Source: Patescibacteria group bacterium
Lineage (GTDB): Bacteria; Pseudomonadota; Alphaproteobacteria; Micavibrionales; UBA2020
Assembly (NCBI GenBank): GCA_035626855.1
Contig: DASPMW010000106.1
Coordinates: 1-63,435, forward strand
Direction: 5' to 3'
DNA length: 63,435 bases
In this document: piece by piece, positions 4,265-41,832 of the stretch
Layout: every line of letters begins with the position of its first letter
Position numbering within the stretch: position 1 is the stretch's first letter
Translations under genes and position numbers: made by a program
The notes under the pieces: generated by a model
What the model was told of the DNA's origin: nothing
The model's input: the letters and a program-made list of their open reading frames with translations, nothing else
Database searches by the model: none

Positions 4265-5041
4265 ATGCAGTCCCTGCTCAATGAACTCGTCACCGGCCAT
4301 GTCGCGGCCTTTCTGCTCATCTTCATGCGCACCGGCCTCGCATTGATGATCATGCCGGGCATCGGGGACAGTTTCGTGTCGCCGCAGATCCGCCTCCATT
4401 TCGCGCTTGGTTTCGCCTTCATCCTGACCCCCTTCCTCGCCCCGAACCTGCCGCCCCTGCCCTCCGCCGCGCCCGACATGATCGCGCTTCTGGTGTCGGA
4501 GGCGTTTATCGGGCTGTTCATCGGCACGGTTATGCGCATCATGATCACGGCGCTCGATACCGCGGGCGGCGTCATTTCCATCCAGTCGAGCTTTTCCAAC
4601 GCGCTTGTCTTCAACCCGATGACCGCAACGCAAGGCTCGGTCATCGGCGCGCTCTATTCGATCACGGGGGTCACGCTGCTCTTCGTCACCAACCTGCACC
4701 ACTACATGCTGGCCTCGGTCATCGACAGCTACACGATGTTTCCGGCGCTCGCCCAGGCGCCCGACATGCAGCCGATCATCGAGGTCGTGATCGCGACCGT
4801 CAGCACGGCCTTCAAGATCGGCGTGCAGCTCGCGATGCCCTTCCTGATCGTCGGCACGCTGGTGCAGTTCGCCTTCGGCCTCGTCGGGCGGTTGCTGCCG
4901 CAGATCCAGATATTCTTCCTCGCGATGCCGGTGCAGATCCTGCTTTCCCTCGTCATGCTGACGATGGTGATCTCGGCCGGCATGCTCTTCTGGCTTCAGG
5001 GCTTCGAGGATCTCGTCAACGGCGCGCTGAACCCGAGGTAG
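4265..5041 (+). CDS. fliR: Flagellar export protein FliR
   Basis: Polytopic; PGIGDSFVSPQIRL, GRLLPQIQIFFLAMP. Confidence 0.93.
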   Translation: MQSLLNELVTGHVAAFLLIFMRTGLALMIMPGIGDSFVSPQIRLHFALGFAFILTPFLAPNLPPLPSAAPDMIALLVSEAFIGLFIGTVMRIMITALDTAGGVISIQSSFSNALVFNPMTATQGSVIGALYSITGVTLLFVTNLHHYMLASVIDSYTMFPALAQAPDMQPIIEVVIATVSTAFKIGVQLAMPFLIVGTLVQFAFGLVGRLLPQIQIFFLAMPVQILLSLVMLTMVISAGMLFWLQGFEDLVNGALNPR

Positions 5042-31819: not shown

Positions 31820-33901
31820 TTACTTGGCACCGCTCTCCCGCCACCACATCCAGACCGCGCCGAGCAGAATAATTAATAAACTCAAGGCATTGGGCAGGAG
31901 TGCGAGACTCTCGATATTATCGATCGTATAAGCCGAGTTGCGCTTCATGCCGATCCAGTCATCGCCGCCCATCGCGCGGACATTCGACGAGACGTCCCGC
32001 AGCGCGAAATCCCGATTCTCCTGGAACCAGACGATCCCGCCGCCTGTCGCGTGGATGACGGGCTTCAGCTTTTCCTCGGTCGTATGGACATCGGCGAATT
32101 CCTCGTTGCGGGCCGAGCCTACGACGACGAATGCCTTCTTGAGGCCGTTGTCGAAGCTGTAAATGCCGTGATCGGGCGCCTGCACATTCGCGCGGATCCA
32201 GCCAGGTTCCTTGTCCGTCATTTTAACAAGTGACTGCGCGCCGGAGGGTGCGGTCATCATCACCGTCTTTTCCTCGGGCGTCAGGTCGCGCTCGGACACG
32301 GTAATCGTGTTGCCGCGGGCTTCGGCCTTGATGAAGTCGTCCTCGAGCTCCGGTTCCTTCATGAGCCAGTGGGCGAGATTGCGCAGGAGCTCGGTGTAAG
32401 GGCCGGACTGGCCGCCGATGCCCTTGCCCCAGAGCCAGACGTTGTCCGAGGCGAGCACGGCGGCGCGGCCCTCCGCCACTTTGTCGATGACCAGCAGCGG
32501 GCGGCCGTCGATGCCGGTCATGAGCGTTTCGCCGCGCTGTTTCATGGTTTCGGCCTGCGCGTACCACTGGCCCCATTTCTTTTCGCGGAACTGGCGCATC
32601 AGGTCGGCGGTGATCGGGTGCTGCGCGCCGAGTGTCGAGAGCACGGGGCGGAATGGCAGGCGCGCAGTTTCGCCGCCCGTCGCCACCAGCGGCAGCTGGC
32701 TGTCAAGCGCCGCGCTGATGCTGCCGCCCGTAATGCCGAACTGTTTCGCCTCCGCCGTGCCGAGCGCCATGAGGAACGCCCCGCCCTGCCGGATGTAATT
32801 GGCGATATTCGTGAAGTAGGAAGGCTGCATGACCATGTTATATGCCTGGTAGCGGTCGAAGACGATCAGGTCGAAGTCCTTGATCTTTTTCTCGAACAAT
32901 TCCTCGACCGGGAAGACAATCAGCGACAACTGGTTCGGCGGCGTGGCATCCATCGATTCCGGCGAGCGCAGGATGGTGAAATGCACGAGGTCGATCGCGG
33001 GATCGGATTTCAATAGGTTGCGCCAGGCGCGTTCGCCCATATGCGGAGAGCCGGAGACCAGGAGCACGCGCAAACGGTCGCGGATGCCGTTGACGATGAC
33101 GGGCGCGCTGTTATTCCCGCCAGAAAGCTCGCCTTCCTCCACCGGCATCACGAATTCGAGGATGTTCTGGCCGGGATGGGAAATGCGGAAGCTGAATTCG
33201 CGTTCCTCGTTCGGCATCAGGCTTGCGACCTGCTCCGTCTGGCCGTCCTGCTTGATCGTGACGGTCGAGGGGGCATTCATGCTGCGGCCGAATTCCTCCA
33301 CCTTTACGCGGACGGTGACGTTTTCATTCAGCACGCCGTATTTAGGCGCGGCGACGACGGTGATCTTGCGGTCGAATTCCTTTCTGGTGCCGGTCAGCAC
33401 GGCATGAAAGGGACCGAGCCGGTCGAGCGCGCCGAGATCCTTCGGCACGTCATGCACCTGGCCGTCGGTGATGAGTACCGTGCCGGCAACCTGCGACATC
33501 GGGATGGTCGAGAGATTGTTACGCAGGAGGGTGAACAGGTTTGTTGATTCACTTTCCTGCGCCGTTGAGGAGCGGATGACCACTGGCTCGACATTCGACT
33601 TCTTGGCGAGCGTGGACTGGATATATTGCAGCGCTTCTTCGGCCACCTTGTCCCTGCCGCCGAGCTTCTGGCTGGGGCTGTCGTCCAGGATGATGACCAG
33701 CTTGTCAGGCAACCCCTGGCGGATTTCGTTCAGGATGACGGGGTTCAGCAACACCCCGATCAGGATAAAAAAGAACGCGGCGCGCCAGAAGAAATCGCGC
33801 ATCCGGCGGAAGACGGCCAGCGTCAGCGCGAACACCCCGAGCAGGCCGAGATAGATGTACCAGAATTGCGGCAGGTAGGGCGACCATTCGAAGGTTGTCA
33901 T
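31820..33901 (-). CDS. Conserved membrane protein with vWA-like and glutamine amidotransferase-like regions
   Basis: GTVLITDGQVHD, LRVLLVSGSPHMGERAWRNLLKSDPAIDLVHFTILR, RNLAHWLMKEPELE; last gene of the DUF58 operon. Confidence 0.75.
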   Translation of the reverse strand: MTTFEWSPYLPQFWYIYLGLLGVFALTLAVFRRMRDFFWRAAFFFILIGVLLNPVILNEIRQGLPDKLVIILDDSPSQKLGGRDKVAEEALQYIQSTLAKKSNVEPVVIRSSTAQESESTNLFTLLRNNLSTIPMSQVAGTVLITDGQVHDVPKDLGALDRLGPFHAVLTGTRKEFDRKITVVAAPKYGVLNENVTVRVKVEEFGRSMNAPSTVTIKQDGQTEQVASLMPNEEREFSFRISHPGQNILEFVMPVEEGELSGGNNSAPVIVNGIRDRLRVLLVSGSPHMGERAWRNLLKSDPAIDLVHFTILRSPESMDATPPNQLSLIVFPVEELFEKKIKDFDLIVFDRYQAYNMVMQPSYFTNIANYIRQGGAFLMALGTAEAKQFGITGGSISAALDSQLPLVATGGETARLPFRPVLSTLGAQHPITADLMRQFREKKWGQWYAQAETMKQRGETLMTGIDGRPLLVIDKVAEGRAAVLASDNVWLWGKGIGGQSGPYTELLRNLAHWLMKEPELEDDFIKAEARGNTITVSERDLTPEEKTVMMTAPSGAQSLVKMTDKEPGWIRANVQAPDHGIYSFDNGLKKAFVVVGSARNEEFADVHTTEEKLKPVIHATGGGIVWFQENRDFALRDVSSNVRAMGGDDWIGMKRNSAYTIDNIESLALLPNALSLLIILLGAVWMWWRESGAK

Positions 33902-36642
33902 TGGCGATGCAACCTTTCGAGGATGTAGGGCACGTGGACCTGGTCGGATTTATAATTGCCGGCAAGCGCCATCATCATGACGTTGACGCCGAAGCGGTAT
34001 GCCATTTCGCGCTGCATCTCCCCGCCCGGCACGACGGGGAAGCGTGCGCGGTCTTCGTAGCTTTGCGACCAGGCGGCCGCCCAGTCATTGCCGCCGATGA
34101 GCGCGGCGGTGACGCCGTCGTTATTCGCGCTCGGCTCCTTCTCCATCCACAGATGTCCGCCGCCATAGGCGCCCGGGAATTCATCGAGCAGGTAAAAAGT
34201 CTTGGTCAGGATGTCGCCGCGCGCGACTTCCTTCAGCTCCGGCAGATTGATGCCGGCCAACACCGTGCGCAGCTGCTTGGTGCCGATGGTCGCGTTCCTG
34301 ACCTCGCCGTTCTGATCCGCGAATTGCTGGTCGCGCGTGTCGAACAGCACCAGGCCGCCCTGCGCCATGTAATTGGCAATGTTGCGCGCGGCGACCGTCG
34401 AGAGGGGCGGCTGCACGGGCGTCATCGGCCAGTAGATCATCGGGTAGAAATAAAGCGGGTCGGCGGCGAGGTTCACGCCGCGCACGCCCTTGATCCTGAT
34501 CGTGGTGCGGCTGTTGATGACCTGCATCAGGCCCATGAGGCCGTTATAGCTGACCATATCGAGGCCGCTGTCGCCGGTCTCGACATAGGCGAGGTAGATA
34601 TTGGAGGAAAGATCGATGGCGGTCATTTCATCCTGCGCCTGCGCAGGCGCAGCGCCGAGCAGCGCCGCGAAAACAATCACGGCCGCGCCGCGGCGCACCT
34701 GCGCGAAGGCGCCGCGCATCCAGAGCGTGAGGAGCGTGTCCACGAGCAGCAGCAGGAGCGCCCATTTCAGGAAATCGGGTTTCATGCCCCGCTCGCCGGA
34801 GAGTTTGTATTCGTCAACCGTGACGCCCGCCGGAATATCGCCGAGCGCCACCATCTGCGGCAGCGCGTCGCCCAGGTTGAAGACCGAAAACTGTTTTTCC
34901 GTCCCGTACAGCCCGGGGGGCGTGACAGCGGTGGGGGTAAAGCCTTTTTTCGGGTCGAGCGCAGAAATGATGGATTTCGGTCCCGGCGGTTGCAGTTTGC
35001 CGAAGCCGTCCAGCACCATAAAGGGCGAGAGCAGGGATTCAGCTTTGTAATCGCTGATGCCGGTCGAGAGCGAAATCATGCGCTGCAGCGCGGCGACGTA
35101 CAGGCCCGAATAGCAGAAATTCGACCAGTCGGTGCCGGCGGTGGTGTGGATCAGCACGATCTCGCCCTTGCCGATGGCGGCACCCGTCAGCAGCGGCGTG
35201 CCGTCGTCCAGCTGGAGCCAGGTATGCTCGAAGGTTTCGGGCGTCGGCTCCGCCAGCACCTGACGCGTGACGAGCACATCGGGCGGAACTTCCAGGCCCA
35301 GCAGCGGGCTGCCCTCCGGGATCGTCTGGTTCAGCTTGACCGGCTTTTCCCAGGTCATCGCGCCCTCAAGCGCGCGCAGGCCGAACCGCAACCGAACGGG
35401 CAGCAGCGGATCCTCCGGATTGGCGGCGAGGTTGGGGCCGGCGAAGCGGATGAGGAAACCGCCTTGCTCCACCCATTTCAGCAGGTCAACGCGCTCGATC
35501 GCTGTGAGCGGCGCAGCGTCCGGCCAGATGATCGCGGAGAGCGACTTGCCGAGCAGCTTGTCGACATCGTCGATTTCAAGCCCGCCACCGGTTTCGAGCG
35601 CGCGTTTCAGGTAATAGACCTCGTTCAGGAAGCTGTCGCTTTCCTTATGGGCGATATCGGCGATGATGCCGACCGGGCGCTGCTGCCACTGTGAATCCGT
35701 CAGGTAAGTGGCGGAGGCCATCGGCGTGCGCTGCAGCCCGATACGGCTGACCTTGCTGCGCATCTCGTTCAGCACGTCCCATTTCACGTCGGTCGTGCGC
35801 TGGCCGGCGCCGAATTCAACCTTGACGTTGTCGAGTACGCTGCCGTCCGGCGCATAGGCCGCGAGTAGCTGCGCCTCCTGCGTGAGCGCGCCGTTCAGCC
35901 GCTCAACGGTCAGGTCGAGGGAGCCGGGCTTTACAGCCTTTTTCCGCAGGATATAGGGCGTGTTGACTTTCTCGTCCTTCACGAGGGTCAGGCCGCCGCC
36001 GGGACGCAAGGCATCCATGAAGGCGCGGCCATCCGCGGTCTGCTGCGTGACGCCGTCGCTGAGGAAGACGGTATGCGAAATCTTGTGCTTGCCATTCACC
36101 TCCGCGGCGAGCGCGGCGGCGGCTTGGTGATCGGTCGGCCAGGCGACAGGCTTCAGGTGCGCGGCGAAGGCTTGCGCCTCACCCTCCTCCATCGGCCCGA
36201 AATAATGCAGCTTGCCGTCGCCTTCGTCGGCCGCGGTCAGCAGGAAGATCACAGGGCGGTCAGAGCGGCGCACCTGCGAGAGGAACTCCCGCAGCTTTTC
36301 CTGCCGCTGCAGCCAGTTCGCCGCGGATGCCCAGCCGTTATCGATGGCGACCATCACGTTGCCGCCGGACCCTGGCAGTCCGGCGGACAGCTTCATGATC
36401 GGCTCCGCCATCGCGAAGATGAAAAGCGCAACGATGATCGAGCGCAGCAGCAGCAGCCACCAGGGCGTATGCGCCGGCGTGCGCAAATCGGTTTTCAGGT
36501 CCTGCAGCAGGAAGAAGGCGGGAAACTTGACGGCCTTGGGACGCGGCGGCATGACCCGCAGGATCCACCACAGCACCGGAATGCCGGCCAGCGCAGCGAG
36601 CAGGAAGGGTGAGAGGAAACTGAGGCCAGCGAGGGAAAACAT
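33898..36642 (-). CDS. BatA N-terminal / DUF4159 domain membrane protein
   Basis: LWWILRVMPPRP..VKFPAF..L, TPWWLLLLR; C-terminal LYFYPMIYWP, GGNDWAAAW, AYRFGVN, GNYKSDQVH. Confidence 0.85.
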   Translation of the reverse strand: MFSLAGLSFLSPFLLAALAGIPVLWWILRVMPPRPKAVKFPAFFLLQDLKTDLRTPAHTPWWLLLLRSIIVALFIFAMAEPIMKLSAGLPGSGGNVMVAIDNGWASAANWLQRQEKLREFLSQVRRSDRPVIFLLTAADEGDGKLHYFGPMEEGEAQAFAAHLKPVAWPTDHQAAAALAAEVNGKHKISHTVFLSDGVTQQTADGRAFMDALRPGGGLTLVKDEKVNTPYILRKKAVKPGSLDLTVERLNGALTQEAQLLAAYAPDGSVLDNVKVEFGAGQRTTDVKWDVLNEMRSKVSRIGLQRTPMASATYLTDSQWQQRPVGIIADIAHKESDSFLNEVYYLKRALETGGGLEIDDVDKLLGKSLSAIIWPDAAPLTAIERVDLLKWVEQGGFLIRFAGPNLAANPEDPLLPVRLRFGLRALEGAMTWEKPVKLNQTIPEGSPLLGLEVPPDVLVTRQVLAEPTPETFEHTWLQLDDGTPLLTGAAIGKGEIVLIHTTAGTDWSNFCYSGLYVAALQRMISLSTGISDYKAESLLSPFMVLDGFGKLQPPGPKSIISALDPKKGFTPTAVTPPGLYGTEKQFSVFNLGDALPQMVALGDIPAGVTVDEYKLSGERGMKPDFLKWALLLLLVDTLLTLWMRGAFAQVRRGAAVIVFAALLGAAPAQAQDEMTAIDLSSNIYLAYVETGDSGLDMVSYNGLMGLMQVINSRTTIRIKGVRGVNLAADPLYFYPMIYWPMTPVQPPLSTVAARNIANYMAQGGLVLFDTRDQQFADQNGEVRNATIGTKQLRTVLAGINLPELKEVARGDILTKTFYLLDEFPGAYGGGHLWMEKEPSANNDGVTAALIGGNDWAAAWSQSYEDRARFPVVPGGEMQREMAYRFGVNVMMMALAGNYKSDQVHVPYILERLHRQ

Positions 36643-37524
36643 TTACGTCTTCCCCTTCTTGACCGCGAGATCGTCGTAGAGGCGCGTCAGCACGTCTTCC
36701 GGCTTCGCGGCCGTGTTTGTATGAAAGAATTTCCAGCCTATGCGCCGCGCGAGTTCCGCAAGCTTGTCCTGATGGGCGAGGAAGCGGCGGTGGTATTCTT
36801 CCGCGATTGCCTCCACCTGGGGCACGTCGATGGGGGCGGCGCCCGACGCCTCGATATCGTAGAATTTCGTGCGGCCCTTGAAGGGCAGGTTCTTCTCGGA
36901 CGGATCGTAGACCTGCACCAGACTTCCGCTGACGCCCCGCAGCGCCAGCTTCTGGCAGAAATGCGCCACTTGCTCGACGGGGTAATAGAAGTCGCTGATC
37001 AGGATTGCCTCGGACCGCGCGGCAATCGCGCGGCCGGTTTCGGCCATCTGCTTCTGGACCGGAAGATATTCGAAAATGCGCTGCACGGAATTGTAATTGG
37101 TCTGCGGCGCAAGATCGGTGCCAAGCAGGCTGACCTGTTCGCCGCCGTTCAGCGTCACGATGGCAAGCGCGAGCAGCAACGTTTCGGCGAATTCCTTTTT
37201 CGTCGGCAGGTTCTTGTAGCCGCGATAGTTCATGGATTCCGTTGCGTCGCGGTAAAGCCACAGTGTCTGCGAAGCTTCCCACTCCATCTGGCGGACGAAA
37301 GCTTCGCCGCGCTTGGCGGATTGCCGCCAGTCGATGTCGCGGCGCTGGTCGCCGGGCTGGTACTGGCGGAACTGCCAGAAGCTTTCGCCCTGCCCGACGC
37401 GCCGGCGGCCATGGACGCCCTTCATGAAGGTATGCGCGACCTTTTCGGCCTCGAGCAGCAGCCCGGGCAGTTTCCCCGCAAGGCGTTCGGCTTCCGCCAG
37501 CGTCTTGTGGTCGTTGGTCGTCAC
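36643..37524 (-). CDS. DUF58 family (vWA-like) protein
   Basis: GVHGRRRVGQGESFWQFRQYQPGD...IDWRQSAK, ILISDF. Confidence 0.92.
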   Translation of the reverse strand: MTTNDHKTLAEAERLAGKLPGLLLEAEKVAHTFMKGVHGRRRVGQGESFWQFRQYQPGDQRRDIDWRQSAKRGEAFVRQMEWEASQTLWLYRDATESMNYRGYKNLPTKKEFAETLLLALAIVTLNGGEQVSLLGTDLAPQTNYNSVQRIFEYLPVQKQMAETGRAIAARSEAILISDFYYPVEQVAHFCQKLALRGVSGSLVQVYDPSEKNLPFKGRTKFYDIEASGAAPIDVPQVEAIAEEYHRRFLAHQDKLAELARRIGWKFFHTNTAAKPEDVLTRLYDDLAVKKGKT

Positions 37525-38822
37525 GCCGCCGCCTCCGATTTGTTGCGCACCAGGACAGCCGCGAAAAAGCCGTCGGTGTCGTGCTGCGCGGGGGTGAGCT
37601 TGAGGTAATCGCCGGCGCCCTTGATGTCCACCAGTTCCTTCGCCGGCTTCAGCGTGAATTCGGGATGCGCGGCGAGGAAGGTTTCCACCTGCCGCTCATT
37701 TTCATCCGGCAGCAGCGAACAGGTCGCGTAAACGAGGCGCCCGCCCGGCTTCACCATCCGGTAGGCAGAGTCGATAATGTTTTTCTGCAAGGGCACGAGC
37801 GAGGAGATGCCGGGGCCGAGCATGCGCCAGCGCTTGTCGGGGTCGCGCCGCCAGGTGCCGACGCCCGTGCAGGGCGCATCCACTAGGACGAGGTCGAAGT
37901 GCCTCTCGTGCCGTTTCACATACTTGTCCCGCTCCGATGTCAGCGCGCGGGTTTCGATGTTGTGCAGCCCTGCGCGGCGGAAACGTTCCTTGGCCCGCTC
38001 GAGACGCTTGTCGAGCACGTCCATCGCAACGATGCGGCCCTTGTTGTTCATCGACGCGCCAAGCGCGAGCGTCTTGCCACCCGCTCCCGCGCAGAAATCG
38101 GCGACCTGTTCTCCTGGTTTTGCCTGGGCGAGGAGCGCGACCATCTGCGAGCCTTCGTCTTGAATCTCAACGAGGCCGTTTTTATAAAATTCATGCTGCG
38201 CAATCGGCGGGCGGTTGCGCATGCGGATACAAAGCGGGGAAATTTTGCCTGGCTCCGCATCCAGTCCGTCGCGGCGGAATTCGGCCAGCAGCTCGTCGCG
38301 CGACGCCTTGATCGCATTGACGCGAAGATCGAGCGGCGCAGGCGTCATCATCGCCTGCAGCTCGTTTTCAAGGTTCGGCCCGAGCACTTCCTTCAGGAGC
38401 GGGTATGCCCATTCGGGACACTCGAGGCGCTCGCGCTCCGGCATTTCCGGCGTCTCGAGCCCCTTGCCCATCAGCGCGCGGGTAAGGTCACGCTCCGGCT
38501 TGGTCATTTCGAGCGGCGCATATTGCGCGCCCGAGAAAATCTCGTTGACCGCTTTCGCGTCGAATTCCTTGTGCAGGATCAGGTCGGCGATGGTCAGCGT
38601 GCGCGCGTCGACGCGGCCGCCGTTCTGCGTGATCCACCAGGACAGGCGGTGATATTCGCGCATGACGCGAAAGAAGCGCAGCTGGATCGCCGCGCGATCC
38701 TTCGAGCCGATGAAGCGGCGGTTGCGGAAGTAAAAGCTGGCGACCGCGTCGGCCGGTTTTTCGACGGCGAGAACTTCGGTCAATATCTCGATAACCGCCT
38801 GTATTCTTGCAGCTGGTGTCAT
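37521..38822 (-). CDS. RsmB/NOP-family RNA m5C methyltransferase
   Basis: QDEGSQ, DFCAGAGGKT, VDAPCTGVGTWRR, YATCSL. Confidence 0.92.
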   Translation of the reverse strand: MTPAARIQAVIEILTEVLAVEKPADAVASFYFRNRRFIGSKDRAAIQLRFFRVMREYHRLSWWITQNGGRVDARTLTIADLILHKEFDAKAVNEIFSGAQYAPLEMTKPERDLTRALMGKGLETPEMPERERLECPEWAYPLLKEVLGPNLENELQAMMTPAPLDLRVNAIKASRDELLAEFRRDGLDAEPGKISPLCIRMRNRPPIAQHEFYKNGLVEIQDEGSQMVALLAQAKPGEQVADFCAGAGGKTLALGASMNNKGRIVAMDVLDKRLERAKERFRRAGLHNIETRALTSERDKYVKRHERHFDLVLVDAPCTGVGTWRRDPDKRWRMLGPGISSLVPLQKNIIDSAYRMVKPGGRLVYATCSLLPDENERQVETFLAAHPEFTLKPAKELVDIKGAGDYLKLTPAQHDTDGFFAAVLVRNKSEAAA

Positions 38823-38843: not shown

Positions 38844-40226
38844 TTATTTCGCGCGAACGAATTCGGCGTATTCGCGCAAGTCGCGGAGGTCCTTCGCGCC
38901 GAGATAGGCCATTGAGGTGCGCAGGCCGGTCACGAGCTGGTTGACCATATGCGTAACGGAGCCGCGATAGGGAACGGAGGTATCGACCGGGTCTTCGTCG
39001 ATGCGGTAAGGATCGGCGACCTGCGTCGTATGCGACGGGCGGTGCTGGGCCTTGGCCATCGGATTGACGACCTTGTAGGCGTTGCCGCCCTGATACACGA
39101 CCTCGCCGGGCGCTTCGTCCGTGCCGGCGAAAAGATGGCTCATGACGACGCTTTCGGCACCCGCGGCCAGCGCCTTTACGAGCGCGCCCGCGTCCTCCAC
39201 GCCGCCATCGACGAGAACGGGGATATCCTGCATCTCGCACTGCTCGACAACCGCGAGAATGGCGGAGAATTGCGGCACGCCGATGCCAAGCTGCCCGCGC
39301 AGCACGGCGCCGGGCATCGGGCCCATGCCGACCTTGATCGCATCCGCGCCCGCGTCGATGAGGCTGCGGGCGGCATTCGCCGTCGCGACGTTGCCCGCGA
39401 CGATCTGCACTTCGCTGGAGCGCTGCTGCCGGATGCGGCTGACGGTTGCCGCCACTTCCTTGGTATGACCGTGGGCGACGTCGATGAAGACGACATCGAG
39501 ACCTGCGTCGGTCATGGCGGCGGCGCGGTCGAGCGCGTCCTTGCCAATAGCGATCGCGGCCCCCACGCGCAGGCGGCCGAACTGGTCGCGCGCGGCCGCC
39601 GGGAAGCGCGACAGTTTCTCGATATCTTTCACCGTGACAAGGCCGGTGAGCTTGCCCTGGTCATCGGTCACGACGATTTTTTCGATGCGGTGCTCGTGCA
39701 GCAATTGCTTCACATGCGCCATGTTGGGCTTGCCCTTCACCGTGACGACCTGTTTGGTCATCAGCTCGCTCACGGGCTTGGCGAAGTCCTCGAAGAAGCG
39801 CAGGTCGCGATTGGTGATGATGCCGACCACTTTCTGCGACGGCTGCTCGATAACGGGCAGGCCGGAGATTTTGTAGGTGGTCATGAGGTCGAGCGCCTCG
39901 GCCACGCTGGACTCAGGCGAGACGGTAATGGGGCTCTGAACGATTTCGCCCTCCGCGCGCTTGACGCGGCGCACCTCTTCCACCTGTTTGCCGAGCGGCA
40001 TGTTGTCGTGAATGACGCCGAGACCGCCCGCCTGCGCAATCGTGATCGCCATGGGGCTTTCCGTGACGTTGTCAGACCCAGCCGCGACAAGGGGGATGTT
40101 CAGTTCGATCGATTTCGTAAGCCGGCTCTTGAGGCTGACCTCGCCCGGCTTGATGTTGGTTTCACCGGGCAGCAGCAGCACGTCCGAGAAATTCAGCTGC
40201 TCTTTGATTGTCGCGTTTCTTTTCAT
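38844..40226 (-). CDS. GuaB/IMPDH-like protein with CBS pair; catalytic residues lost
   Basis: Full IMPDH architecture (DVLLLP, GGLGVIH, ITNRDLRF, HRIEK, RLRVGAA, IDVAHGH, VAGNVAT, VPYRG), but the active-site loop reads GMGPMPGAVLR instead of GIGPGSICTTR and YRGMGS is absent. Confidence 0.85.
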   Translation of the reverse strand: MKRNATIKEQLNFSDVLLLPGETNIKPGEVSLKSRLTKSIELNIPLVAAGSDNVTESPMAITIAQAGGLGVIHDNMPLGKQVEEVRRVKRAEGEIVQSPITVSPESSVAEALDLMTTYKISGLPVIEQPSQKVVGIITNRDLRFFEDFAKPVSELMTKQVVTVKGKPNMAHVKQLLHEHRIEKIVVTDDQGKLTGLVTVKDIEKLSRFPAAARDQFGRLRVGAAIAIGKDALDRAAAMTDAGLDVVFIDVAHGHTKEVAATVSRIRQQRSSEVQIVAGNVATANAARSLIDAGADAIKVGMGPMPGAVLRGQLGIGVPQFSAILAVVEQCEMQDIPVLVDGGVEDAGALVKALAAGAESVVMSHLFAGTDEAPGEVVYQGGNAYKVVNPMAKAQHRPSHTTQVADPYRIDEDPVDTSVPYRGSVTHMVNQLVTGLRTSMAYLGAKDLRDLREYAEFVRAK

Positions 40227-40276: not shown

Positions 40277-40978
40277 TTAGCCCCGGAACCCCATTGCCAC
40301 AACATACATTTCCGCTGAATCGCTGCGGCTGGCATGGGGTTTAACGTGCTTCACTCGCGTAAAATCTTTTTTCAGCTGCTTGAGCAGCGTCTCGGAGGAC
40401 CCACCCTGGAACACCTTGCACAGGAAGGTCCCGCCGGGCACGAGGATTTCATGCGCGAATTCATATGCCGCCTCGGCCAGCATCATGATGCGGATATGGT
40501 CGGTTTCACGGTGGCCCATCGTCGGCGGCGCCATGTCTGACATAACGACATCGGCCTTGCCGCCCACGGCATCGGTCAGTTTCTGTGGCGCATCGTTATC
40601 CATAAAATCAAGCTTGAAGAAAATCGCTTCGGCGACCGGTTTCATGTCGAGGTAATCGATTGCGACCACCTTGCCGCCGGTTTTCTTGGGCTTGACGATT
40701 TCGCACGCGACCTGCGTCCAGCCGCCCGGCGCCGCGCCCAGATCGATGACGCGCATCCCCGCCTTGAACAGGTTCAGGTCGTCATGCATCTGCTGAATTT
40801 TGTAGGCGGCGCGGCTGTGGAAGCCGTCACTCTTCGCCTGCGCGACGTAAGGATCGTTCAGTTGCCGCTCCAGCCAGCGCGCGGAGGAAATGCTGCGCTT
40901 GGCGCGCGTCTTCACACGCACTTTTTTCTGTGCGCCGCGCGGGTTGCGGGGTTTGGAGGGGGGCTTTTTGTCGGTCAC
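40277..40978 (-). CDS. rlmE: 23S rRNA Um2552 methyltransferase RlmE/FtsJ
   Basis: WLERQLNDPYV, SRAAYK, DLGAAPGGW, VMSDMAP, KPHASRSDSAEMY. Confidence 0.95.
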   Translation of the reverse strand: MTDKKPPSKPRNPRGAQKKVRVKTRAKRSISSARWLERQLNDPYVAQAKSDGFHSRAAYKIQQMHDDLNLFKAGMRVIDLGAAPGGWTQVACEIVKPKKTGGKVVAIDYLDMKPVAEAIFFKLDFMDNDAPQKLTDAVGGKADVVMSDMAPPTMGHRETDHIRIMMLAEAAYEFAHEILVPGGTFLCKVFQGGSSETLLKQLKKDFTRVKHVKPHASRSDSAEMYVVAMGFRG

Positions 40979-41832
40979 GTTACGGCCTCGGTTTGAGCTT
41001 CTGCGACGCCGGCGGGAATCCGCGCCTGCGATTCCTGTTTGGCGGCAATTGCCTTTTCCCCGCGCTTCAGGAAAAGGTATAGATTAAGCCCGAAGAAAAA
41101 GATGATTGCCGGCATCAGCACCGGCAAATCCCTCGGGGTAAATTCGTGGCGAGCACCATAGAAACTCAAGGGCACGAAGATGATTTGCAATATCAACCAT
41201 GCATCCAGCAGCCCGGACGACTTGCCGCGCTCCTTTTCTATGTCGGAGATGCGCCCGCAACCAAGCACAAATAAAACGAGGGCCGCGGCGAAATTGGCAA
41301 TGTCGGCAACCAAGATGTCATTATGCGACAATTTGACGCTCAAAATTTCTCCGGCTAAGACGCAGATAACCAGCAAGATATAAAGCAGGCGCCCCAGCTG
41401 CGGAATCCCTTTTACTTGAAGGGGAAGACCTGGCCCGCCGCTTGCTTTCTCCCCGCGCTTGAAGGACAGGTAAGTGTAACATGCCATCAAGGGGAGAAGA
41501 GATGCTACGCCCAATGGCAAAAGCTGTTCGTCCACGGGGTAAAAAGCCACATAGGCGTTGAGACAAACCATGATGGCCGTCAATACCAGCCAGACCGGCA
41601 GCAACAGCGTTTTTCTGCCCTGCCCTTTTTCGACGTCCTGAATTCTACCGTATACCAGCGGGAAAACAAAAGGGAGCGAGATCAGGCAAGCAAGCAGCAC
41701 GACTTGCCCATCGCCCTGCGACAGCCGCATGGTCCAAACCTGTAAAACCGTGGGGATCAGGCTCAACGTAAAAAAACGAAGGCGTCCCAAAGGTGGAATC
41801 CAGTCCAGATAAGTGTGGGCAGCCTTCATCAA
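40975..41832 (-). CDS. Membrane protein with two tandem DUF805-like repeats
   Basis: Duplicated IPxLGRL...GRIxDxEK...LxxKRGEKA units; lower GC than flanks. Confidence 0.6.
   Translation of the reverse strand: MMKAAHTYLDWIPPLGRLRFFTLSLIPTVLQVWTMRLSQGDGQVVLLACLISLPFVFPLVYGRIQDVEKGQGRKTLLLPVWLVLTAIMVCLNAYVAFYPVDEQLLPLGVASLLPLMACYTYLSFKRGEKASGGPGLPLQVKGIPQLGRLLYILLVICVLAGEILSVKLSHNDILVADIANFAAALVLFVLGCGRISDIEKERGKSSGLLDAWLILQIIFVPLSFYGARHEFTPRDLPVLMPAIIFFFGLNLYLFLKRGEKAIAAKQESQARIPAGVAEAQTEAVT

What the first reader, a model, noticed from the sequence alone, without database searches (positions are those of the whole stretch)
38844..40226. Catalytically dead IMPDH (pseudo-GuaB) with intact CBS domain at the usual guaB position
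Seen in the sequence: a full-length, uninterrupted 460-aa IMPDH-fold ORF with well-kept CBS motifs (ITNRDLRF, HRIEK, KDIEK). The active-site loop GIGPGSICTTR has become GMGPMPGAVLR, with Ala307 (codon at 39306-39308) in place of the catalytic Cys. The IMP-binding YRGMGS and EGVEG flap motifs are replaced by VVNPMAK and EDPVDT. Many coordinated substitutions argue against a sequencing error. Established: IMPDH and GMP reductase both need this Cys, and the CBS pair binds ATP/GTP-type nucleotides allosterically. The rlmE-guaB-rsmB neighbourhood is the usual alphaproteobacterial guaB position as I recall it, and guaA, which often follows, is absent here. Inference: a retained pseudoenzyme repurposed as a nucleotide sensor, scaffold or regulatory subunit of a second active IMPDH, or a lineage that gave up de novo GMP synthesis.
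Basis: partly seen in the sequence, partly recalled or inferred. Interest (0 to 1): 0.85.

Follow-up and report, generated by a model that had tools for sequence, protein, structure and literature searches.

The report
Dead IMP dehydrogenase kept as sensor
A soil bacterium related to Micavibrio keeps, in the usual guaB position, an intact copy of IMP dehydrogenase that has lost every part needed for catalysis but keeps its nucleotide-sensing domain. The copy is under purifying selection across a whole bacterial family, while a second, normal guaB does the enzyme's work elsewhere in the genome.

Summary
Window 38844-40226 (-) encodes a 460-aa protein with the IMPDH fold and two CBS motifs. The catalytic Cys is Ala307, the Cys loop is rewritten, YRGMGS is deleted, the flap Arg is lost, the GS phosphate loop is changed and the C-terminal K+-site tail is missing.

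It is neither an error nor a decaying gene. The same dead paralog sits between rlmE and rsmB in 31 of 33 genomes of one Micavibrio-like family and in none of about 218 genomes from seven sister families. Its dN/dS is 0.03-0.29.

Relaxed sites fall in the catalytic elements. Fifty-nine newly fixed sites fall in the Bateman domain, its hinges and a rebuilt finger/flap. All published Bateman nucleotide contacts are kept.

The genome also has a canonical GuaB next to GuaA, plus Gpt and GuaC. Four relatives lost guaB and guaA yet keep the dead copy intact. The only two cases of loss or decay occur in genomes that also lack guaBA.

The best reading is a non-catalytic purine-nucleotide sensor or regulator built on the IMPDH scaffold. 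The partner and the ligand are unknown. I found no description of it in the literature.

The parts
38844..40226 (-). pGuaB: a 460-aa catalytically dead IMPDH paralog with the (beta/alpha)8 barrel and an inserted Bateman module
   Evidence: ORF. PF00478 at 358 bits with two CBS stretches. TIGR01302 score below cut-off. AlphaFold2 model with pLDDT 81 and TM-score 0.85 to solved IMPDHs.
39297..39329 (-). Former catalytic Cys loop, residues 300-310 (GMGPMPGAVLR). Ala307 (39306-39308) replaces the catalytic Cys.
   Evidence: The loop is hypervariable across the clade and has low pLDDT at residues 303-316.
39597..39953 (-). Bateman module (CBS pair), residues about 92-210. Nucleotide-contact residues R140, D141, E182, K183, K200, D201 and K204 are conserved.
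   Evidence: Pfam CBS with two stretches. Mapping onto PaIMPDH contacts from PMC9462843. Conservation is 88-100% in 144 clade members.
39957..40004 (-). Hinge before the Bateman module, residues 75-90 (NMPLGKQVEEVRRVKR). It is newly constrained in the clade.
   Evidence: The motif is shared with the nearest catalytically intact in-situ GuaBs, L071 and L073.
38955..39077 (-). Rebuilt finger/flap, residues 384-424 (YKVVNP.AKAQHRP...DPYR.DEDPVDTSVPYRGSV). It replaces YRGMGS and the Arg-bearing flap.
   Evidence: The new sequence is conserved in the clade. Predicted flexible, with pLDDT below 50 at residues 390-411.
40277..40978 (-). rlmE (23S rRNA U2552 2'-O-methyltransferase), 50 nt upstream
   Evidence: PF01728 at 184 bits; TIGR00438. 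Conserved synteny.
37521..38822 (-). rsmB-like 16S rRNA m5C methyltransferase, 21 nt downstream
   Evidence: PF01189 at 157 bits. Conserved synteny.
33898..37524 (-). DUF58 gene (overlaps the rsmB end by 4 nt) and a 914-aa BatA-N/DUF4159 gene, which continue the conserved gene string
   Evidence: Synteny in about 40 loci.

Best explanation
pGuaB descends from the ancestral in-situ guaB and has become a pseudoenzyme. It cannot perform IMPDH or GMP-reductase chemistry, because the Cys nucleophile, the water-activating Arg, the IMP phosphate contacts and the K+-site tail are all gone.

Selection still maintains the IMPDH barrel as an oligomeric scaffold, the Bateman module with both canonical purine-nucleotide sites, and a rebuilt, conserved finger/flap surface.

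The most likely mechanism, which is inferred, is as follows. ATP and guanine nucleotides bind the Bateman sites and drive the family's usual conformational or oligomeric switch. Instead of gating a catalytic site, that switch is read out through protein-protein contacts made by the new finger/flap and hinge surfaces, and this regulates purine or guanine-nucleotide homeostasis. Catalysis is supplied by a separate canonical GuaB next to GuaA.

Shown here: the catalytic losses, purifying selection, conservation of the Bateman contacts, the family-wide distribution, the ancestral locus, and the presence of a second active-type GuaB.

Inferred: nucleotide binding, oligomerisation, and the identity of the partner.
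For: Catalytic losses:
- Seen in the window and clade-wide.
- In a comparison of 144 dead-clade sequences with 55 canonical ones, 35 relaxed sites concentrate in the Cys loop, AMD, DGGI..SGD and GS.
- 41 newly constrained and 18 switched sites lie in the hinge, the Bateman domain, barrel helices and the rebuilt finger/flap.

Selection and structure:
- dN/dS is 0.03-0.29, against 0.02-0.20 for the canonical copy in the same genome pairs.
- Bateman contacts R140, D141, E182, K183 and D201 are at least 99% conserved, and K200 and K204 are 88-90% conserved.
- The predicted fold is intact; only the former Cys loop and finger/flap have low confidence.

Distribution and origin:
- Present in 31 of 33 family genomes and in none of about 218 genomes in seven sister families.
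- Always found in the order rlmE-X-rsmB-DUF58-BatA, which is the ancestral guaB slot.
- A canonical GuaB with GuaA lies on C128, and both copies lie on a single chromosome in G001.

Link to the guanine pathway:
- Four genomes without guaB or guaA keep the dead copy. In the two of them that were tested (G018, G020), 83-98% of clade-specific sites are preserved.
- The only loss and the only decay of the gene occur in genomes that also lack guaBA.

Precedent:
- Deleting the Bateman domain of E. coli IMPDH unbalances the ATP and GTP pools (PMC9375230).
Against: - No biochemical data exist. Nucleotide binding, oligomeric state and lack of activity are inferred from sequence.
- No partner has been identified. 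The rlmE/rsmB context is inherited from the ancestral guaB locus, so it says nothing specific about function.
- dN/dS is 1.5-3 times that of the canonical copy, and the window's own copy lies on a somewhat accelerated branch.
- The gene is dispensable in some lineages. G021 has a clean deletion and G149 a broken copy.
- Some Bateman contacts (I120, T157) are only 65-68% conserved.
- No RNA evidence of expression was found.
Confidence: 0.6

Rival explanations
1. pGuaB is a dedicated regulatory subunit of the active enzyme. It co-assembles with canonical GuaB into mixed tetramers or octamers and tunes that enzyme's ATP/GTP response, much as inactive PRPS-associated proteins are understood to act on PRPP synthetase (my recollection, not checked in the cited preprint). 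It has no function without GuaB.
For: - The two copies co-occur in about 32 family genomes.
- The Bateman and finger regions, which make the tetramer-tetramer contacts in IMPDH octamers (PMC9462843), are the most constrained parts.
- The dead copy is lost or broken only in genomes that lack guaB and guaA: 2 of 6 against 0 of about 32, Fisher p about 0.02 without phylogenetic correction.
- A review notes that IMPDH isoforms may co-assemble (PMC9375230).
Against: - G018 (100% complete), G020 (99%), G015 and G155 lack canonical GuaB and GuaA yet keep an intact dead copy. Clade-specific sites were checked in three of them: G018 and G020 are as well preserved as their peers, while G015, from a divergent basal genus, keeps only 50% of the switched sites.
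- The two paralogs are only about 47% identical, and the dead copy lacks the C-terminal segment that crosses into the neighbouring subunit's active site.
Confidence: 0.22
2. Neo-functionalised enzyme. The barrel has acquired a different catalytic activity that uses the newly fixed residues (Q394-H395-R396, D405, D410, D412, D415-T416-S417) instead of the Cys loop.
For: - Newly conserved polar motifs occur in loops at the C-terminal face of the barrel.
- DGG and LFAGTDEAPGE are retained.
- There are weak matches to NMO and FMN_dh barrels.
Against: - The phosphate-binding GS and the YRGMGS motif are lost.
- The former active-site loop is hypervariable and even partly deleted in some members (L026).
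- The new motifs lie in segments predicted to be disordered, which fits a binding surface better than a preformed active site.
- No cofactor-binding signature was gained.
Confidence: 0.08
3. Non-functional remnant. The gene is a slowly decaying pseudogene, kept open only by chance or by polar effects in the rlmE-rsmB operon.
For: - The evolutionary rate is elevated relative to the canonical copy.
- The gene has been deleted in G021 and broken in G149.
Against: - Full-length open frames are found in more than 120 independent sequences spanning about 57-100% identity.
- dN/dS is 0.03-0.29.
- 59 sites are more conserved than, or differently fixed from, the active enzyme.
- The gene has been retained across seven genera.
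Confidence: 0.03
4. Still an IMPDH or GMP reductase that uses a shifted nucleophile. Some members have a Cys one position earlier in the loop.
For: A few members (L015, L016, L018, L021, L022) carry a Cys at loop position 7.
Against: - That Cys is absent from the window's protein and from most clade members.
- The Arg of the catalytic dyad, the IMP phosphate contacts and the K+-site tail are also missing.
- All equivalog scores are below their cut-offs.
Confidence: 0.02

Closest known systems
Canonical bacterial IMP dehydrogenase GuaB (e.g. S. pyogenes 1ZFJ, P. aeruginosa 7PJI/4DQW, and this genome's own copy on C128)
   Same: - Same (beta/alpha)8 barrel with an inserted Bateman module, at 42-47% identity and TM-score 0.85.
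- Same canonical nucleotide-site residues in both CBS motifs.
- Same ancestral rlmE-guaB-rsmB locus.
   Different: - No catalytic Cys, no flap Arg, no YRGMGS or GS IMP-phosphate contacts, and no C-terminal K+-site tail.
- The Cys loop is hypervariable.
- The finger/flap is rebuilt and conserved, and 59 sites are fixed in a clade-specific way.
- The score is below the TIGR01302 cut-off.
Mycobacterial IMPDH-related proteins GuaB1 (a GMP reductase) and GuaB3 (TIGR01303/NF052358 and TIGR01304)
   Same: They are extra IMPDH-family paralogs that sit beside the true IMPDH and do not show IMPDH activity (PMC10912719).
   Different: - Scores are far below those families' cut-offs (263 against 549, and 93 against 342).
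- GuaB1 is an active GMP reductase that keeps its Cys (my recollection).
- GuaB3 lacks the CBS pair (my recollection).
- pGuaB has a separate, family-level origin within the Alphaproteobacteria.
Bateman-module sensor and adaptor proteins, such as AcuB in Bacilli (PMC13121692), and the Bateman domain of E. coli IMPDH, whose deletion unbalances ATP and GTP pools (PMC9375230)
   Same: A CBS pair binds adenine or guanine nucleotides and passes the signal on rather than serving catalysis. This is the proposed working mode.
   Different: Here the sensor is carried on a complete but dead IMPDH barrel rather than on a small stand-alone protein. Neither the ligand nor the partner is known.
Inactive paralogs that regulate purine-pathway enzymes, e.g. 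PRPS-associated proteins (PMC13252144, a preprint on PRPS evolution found in the search but not read here)
   Same: A catalytically dead duplicate of a nucleotide-biosynthesis enzyme is retained next to the active paralog. That the PRPS-associated proteins are inactive regulators is my recollection.
   Different: It is a different enzyme family and a eukaryotic case. Hetero-oligomerisation is not shown here, and the dead copy persists in genomes without the active paralog.

Membership tests
IMP dehydrogenase (EC 1.1.1.205; TIGR01302 equivalog) | (beta/alpha)8 barrel with an inserted CBS pair | tested here: met
   PF00478 at 358 bits with two CBS stretches. The AlphaFold2 model has TM-score 0.85 to IMPDH structures.
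IMP dehydrogenase (EC 1.1.1.205; TIGR01302 equivalog) | Catalytic Cys in the GxGPGSICTTR loop | tested here: not met
   Ala307 occupies the position, and the loop reads GMGPMPGAVLR. The loop is variable and Cys-less at this position across the clade.
IMP dehydrogenase (EC 1.1.1.205; TIGR01302 equivalog) | Flap Arg (of the Arg-Tyr dyad) that activates water | tested here: not met
   EGIEGRVPxKG has become EDPVDTSVPYRG, so the Arg is Ser417. The Tyr is kept.
IMP dehydrogenase (EC 1.1.1.205; TIGR01302 equivalog) | IMP phosphate contacts (the GS loop and YRGMGS) and the C-terminal K+-site segment | tested here: not met
   GS has become SH, YRGMGS is deleted, and the last roughly 26 residues are absent.
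IMP dehydrogenase (EC 1.1.1.205; TIGR01302 equivalog) | Score above the curated equivalog cut-off | tested here: not met
   452.1 bits against a cut-off of 481.5.
GMP reductase (GuaC, or GuaB1 type) | Catalytic Cys and a score above cut-off | tested here: not met
   There is no Cys. Scores are NF052358 255 against 675 and NF003470 149 against 397. A true GuaC is encoded on C191, scoring 489 against 397.
GuaB3-type IMPDH-related protein (TIGR01304) | Score above cut-off | tested here: not met
   93 bits against a cut-off of 342.
Bateman (CBS-pair) nucleotide-binding module | Two CBS motifs, each with the ribose-binding Asp and its flanking basic residues (PaIMPDH R136/D137, E180/K181, R198/D199, K202) | tested here: met
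   R140/D141, E182/K183, K200/D201 and K204 are present and 88-100% conserved in the clade.
Bateman (CBS-pair) nucleotide-binding module | Actual binding of ATP, GTP or other nucleotides and a resulting conformational switch | not testable with these tools
   Needs binding assays and SAXS or cryo-EM.
Pseudoenzyme (an inactive homologue kept by selection) | Loss of catalytic residues combined with purifying selection and conservation across the lineage | tested here: met
Pseudoenzyme (an inactive homologue kept by selection) | Demonstrated lack of enzyme activity | not testable with these tools
   Needs an enzyme assay or a complementation test.

The most novel reading that the evidence does not exclude
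pGuaB would be the first natural IMPDH pseudoenzyme. In this reading the family's nucleotide-driven extended/compressed octamer switch has been separated from catalysis and reused as a stand-alone ATP/GTP-ratio sensor. Its rebuilt finger/flap would signal to a partner other than GuaB, for example another purine-pathway enzyme or the co-transcribed ribosome-maturation enzymes RlmE and RsmB.

Similar Cys-less, CBS-bearing IMPDH homologues appear to have arisen independently in at least five other lineages. That would make this a recurrent and so far unrecognised class of bacterial nucleotide sensors.
Probability: 0.3. Interest if true: 0.8.

Novelty: new variant of a known kind. Interest (0 to 1): 0.66.

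Why it matters
The regulatory Bateman domain of IMPDH has long been suspected of roles beyond gating catalysis, including control of the ATP/GTP balance, nucleic-acid binding and disease mutations that spare activity. These roles are hard to separate from catalysis in the normal enzyme.

Here nature has made that separation. A whole bacterial family has kept the scaffold and the sensor for a long time after discarding the chemistry, and the active enzyme is encoded elsewhere. Some relatives have no active enzyme at all.

This gives a directly testable system for asking what an IMPDH Bateman module does on its own. It also flags that databases name these proteins 'IMP dehydrogenase', which would mislead metabolic reconstructions of these Micavibrio-like soil and freshwater bacteria.

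Tried and rejected
- Sequencing or assembly error: rejected. The source-run contig is identical, and the losses are seen clade-wide in more than 120 sequences.
- Contaminant origin of the canonical GuaB contig: rejected. Its GC content matches the genome, and both copies lie on the one-contig chromosome of G001.
- 'The lineage gave up GMP synthesis': rejected for this genome.
- HGPRT search (TIGR01203): no hits in the family. Salvage is through Gpt instead.
- Duplication versus transfer origin of the two copies: not resolved. The free tree places the dead clade with the in-situ canonical copies L071 and L073, away from the family's canonical copies. The AU test does not reject the two family copies being sisters (constrained tree lnL +11, p-AU 0.605). 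The shared hinge motif favours descent from the in-situ gene.
- (p)ppGpp-pocket mapping: not possible without the S. coelicolor sequence numbering. The one position I could place, the Asn of TNRD, was matched to StcIMPDH N144 by my own inference and is relaxed in the clade.
- Promoter and terminator scan of the operon: nothing informative.
- RNA evidence: the RNA query listed only four runs of unknown library type that hold a relative, so there is no expression evidence.
- Literature searches for a described IMPDH pseudoenzyme or an inactive guaB paralog with CBS: none found.
- The Pimkin and Markham papers were not held in the library. Their finding is cited through the review PMC9375230.
- The first multiple alignment of the 150 library representatives timed out. 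A faster realignment ran but was too gappy to read because of fragment and fusion sequences. Both were replaced by pairwise mapping.
Full report
**Observation**

The ORF at window 38844-40226 (- strand) is intact and 460 aa long. It is clearly IMPDH-family: Pfam PF00478 scores 358 bits and there are two CBS stretches. It nevertheless falls below the curated IMPDH equivalog cut-off (TIGR01302, 452.1 against 481.5), and far below those of GMP reductase, GuaB1 and GuaB3.

- The catalytic loop GIGPGSICTTR reads G300-MGPMPG-A307-VLR. The Ala codon GCC is at 39306-39308.
- YRGMGS is a six-residue deletion.
- The flap PEGIEGRV reads EDPVDTSV, so the water-activating Arg is Ser417.

I found two further losses. 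The phosphate-loop GS has become SH. The C-terminal segment of about 26 residues, which in IMPDH reaches the neighbouring subunit's K+/Cys-loop site, is absent.

An independently assembled 19.5-kb contig from the source soil-metagenome run matches the locus without a single difference.

**The rest of the genome**

The assembly is 2.92 Mb, 97.8% complete and in 214 contigs. It carries a canonical GuaB on contig C128 with every catalytic motif intact. That gene lies about 0.5 kb from guaA, with one small ORF between them.

It also encodes a true GMP reductase on C191 (NF003470, 489 against a cut-off of 397) and a xanthine-guanine phosphoribosyltransferase (NF006613, 237 against 138). No HGPRT of the TIGR01203 type is present in the family.

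So this organism has a complete guanine-nucleotide toolkit, and the dead protein is an extra. C128 has the genome's GC content. In a relative assembled as a single chromosome (G001), both copies and guaA lie on the same molecule. The canonical copy is therefore not contamination.

**Distribution and origin**

Record titles of related loci name uncultured Micavibrio sp., 'Bdellovibrionales' and Alphaproteobacteria MAGs. Every source that names the protein calls it 'IMP dehydrogenase' or 'CBS domain-containing protein'.

In a survey of 251 genomes from the order, covering eight families, the dead copy occurs in 31 of 33 genomes of the window's family. It occurs in none of about 218 genomes of the other seven families, which have at most one canonical copy each.

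In roughly 60 loci the dead copy always lies in the order rlmE-X-rsmB-DUF58-BatA/DUF4159. In other families of the order, and in most of 29 class-level alphaproteobacterial loci, the canonical guaB occupies exactly this rlmE/rsmB (or guaA) slot. The gene that went dead is therefore the one in the ancestral position.

The dead clade is monophyletic with 100% support and sits on a long stem of about 0.6 substitutions per site.
- The free trees place it next to the nearest outside in-situ copies, L071 and L073. These are catalytically intact and share its derived hinge motif MPLGKQVEEVRRVKR.
- An AU test does not reject the alternative that the dead and canonical copies of the family are sisters. 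The constrained tree scored 11 lnL units better, with p-AU 0.605.
- Whether the working copy arose by duplication or was acquired from a related family therefore remains open.

**Selection**

Pairwise dN/dS (NG86) for the dead copy is 0.03-0.29. For the canonical copy in the same genome pairs it is 0.02-0.20. The Bateman part and the barrel part give similar values. The more distant pairs are close to synonymous saturation.

I compared 144 dead-clade sequences with 55 canonical ones.
- 35 sites that are invariant in real IMPDHs are relaxed. They lie in the Cys loop, the AMD motif, DGGI..SGD and the GS loop.
- 41 sites are newly constrained and 18 are fixed to a different residue.
- These 59 sites cluster in four places: the hinge before the Bateman module; the Bateman module itself (SSVAEAlDLMtTY, RFFEDyAKPV); barrel segments (GKDA.DR, AGLDVvFiD, TVS.IRQQR); and the rebuilt finger/flap (YKVVNP.AKAQHRP, DpyrlDeDpvDTSvPYRGsV).

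The residues that contact ATP and GDP in the P. aeruginosa enzyme (PMC9462843) map to V96, I120, R140, D141, T157, V161, E182, K183, K200, D201 and K204. The charged ones are 88-100% conserved in the clade.

An AlphaFold2 model (pLDDT 81, pTM 0.75) has an intact barrel and CBS pair. Confidence is low only in the former Cys loop (303-316) and the finger/flap (390-411). The model superposes on solved IMPDHs with TM-score up to 0.85.

**Link to the de novo pathway**

Six family genomes lack both canonical guaB and guaA: G018 (100% complete), G020 (99%), G021, G015, G155 and G149.
- Four of them keep an intact dead copy. In G018 and G020 it preserves 83-98% of the clade-specific sites, like its peers. 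Active GuaB therefore cannot be an obligatory partner.
- In G021, rlmE abuts rsmB with about 75 nt between them, so the gene has been cleanly deleted.
- In G149 (the same locus as L076), the Bateman module has been excised and the frame is broken.
- About 32 genomes that have guaBA all keep an intact dead copy. The contrast (2 of 6 against 0 of 32) gives p of about 0.02 by Fisher's test. This is not corrected for phylogeny. It hints that the function is tied to guanine-nucleotide synthesis without strictly depending on it.

**Mechanism**

IMPDH and GMP-reductase chemistry is excluded on sequence grounds. What selection preserves is the oligomeric barrel scaffold, the two canonical purine-nucleotide sites, and a new conserved but flexible surface. 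That surface lies where real IMPDH octamers make their nucleotide-dependent tetramer-tetramer contacts (PMC9462843).

I therefore propose a non-catalytic purine-nucleotide sensor. Its Bateman-driven conformational switch would be read out through protein contacts and would act on purine or guanine homeostasis (confidence about 0.6).

As a precedent, deleting the Bateman domain of E. coli IMPDH unbalances the ATP and GTP pools (PMC9375230). From my own recollection, the 2009 Pimkin et al. paper reported that this role is independent of catalysis. I could not check this because the paper is not held.

The rival explanations and their estimated probabilities are:
- a dedicated regulatory subunit of GuaB (0.22);
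- a new enzyme activity (0.08);
- a functionless remnant (0.03);
- residual IMPDH or GMPR activity (0.02).

**Comparison and novelty**

Literature searches found no description of a natural IMPDH pseudoenzyme or of an inactive CBS-bearing guaB paralog. A 2024 review states that most bacteria have a single guaB and cites only the mycobacterial guaB1 and guaB3 as exceptions.

A profile search of 1.84 billion representative proteins showed one 50%-identity cluster for this clade. It also found about ten other full-length, Cys-less, CBS-bearing IMPDH homologues, which fall in at least five other places on the tree. The phenomenon may therefore be recurrent, although some of these could be artefacts.

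Two earlier first-stage notes from other genomes describe the same kind of gene. One of them has the loop GIGGEPHAPTR, which I also see in G015.

I rate this a new variant of a known kind: an IMPDH-family protein that fails the defining catalytic features but keeps the regulatory ones.

Noticed in passing
G000 contig C128:509-4208 (loci L001, L006, L096): The canonical guaB lies downstream of guaA on the same strand, which is the reverse of the E. coli guaBA order. A 164-aa ORF with no Pfam match sits between them (C128:2095-2589).
   Followed up: partly
G021 locus L149; G149 locus L148 (the same locus as L076:10001-11088): There are two natural knock-outs of the dead copy. In G021, rlmE and rsmB are about 75 nt apart, so the gene is cleanly deleted. 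In G149, residues about 124-218 (the whole Bateman module) are excised with a frameshift, leaving two ORFs. Both genomes also lack canonical guaB and guaA.
   Followed up: yes
Proteins P0128, P0162, P0165, P0174, P0129, P0183, P0211, P0136, P0196 (library): These are other IMPDH homologues that lack the catalytic Cys, and many keep CBS motifs. They fall in at least five separate positions on the tree, outside the Micavibrio-like clade. They may be independent pseudo-IMPDH lineages, although some could be frameshift or assembly artefacts (e.g. P0175, P0189, P0232, P0261).
   Followed up: partly
window 40975-41832 (-): A 285-aa multi-pass membrane protein lies directly upstream of rlmE, overlapping it by 4 nt. 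It has no Pfam match. It seems to consist of two similar halves, with repeated RIQDVEKGQGRK / RISDIEKERGKS and FKRGEKA motifs. It is poorly conserved even within the genus.
   Followed up: no
G000 contig C191:35054-36094 (L003:1144-2184) and C43:~4500-5000 (L128): A true GuaC GMP reductase (GIGPGSACMTR) and a Gpt xanthine-guanine phosphoribosyltransferase are present, and no HGPRT was found in the family. Gpt was confirmed in G000, G018 and G020, so guanine salvage is possible even in relatives that lost guaB and guaA.
   Followed up: yes
window 33898-37524 (-): The rsmB stop overlaps the start of a DUF58 gene by 4 nt. That gene is followed by a 914-aa BatA-N/DUF4159 protein. This aerotolerance-type gene pair is syntenic with the rlmE-pGuaB-rsmB string across the family.
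   Followed up: partly
window 38844-40226 compared with relatives: The window's own dead copy lies on a somewhat accelerated terminal branch (0.12). Its dN against its nearest relatives is about 2.5 times that of its canonical copy (omega 0.15-0.18 against 0.06). The closest pair among those relatives (G001 against G010) gives omega 0.03.
   Followed up: partly
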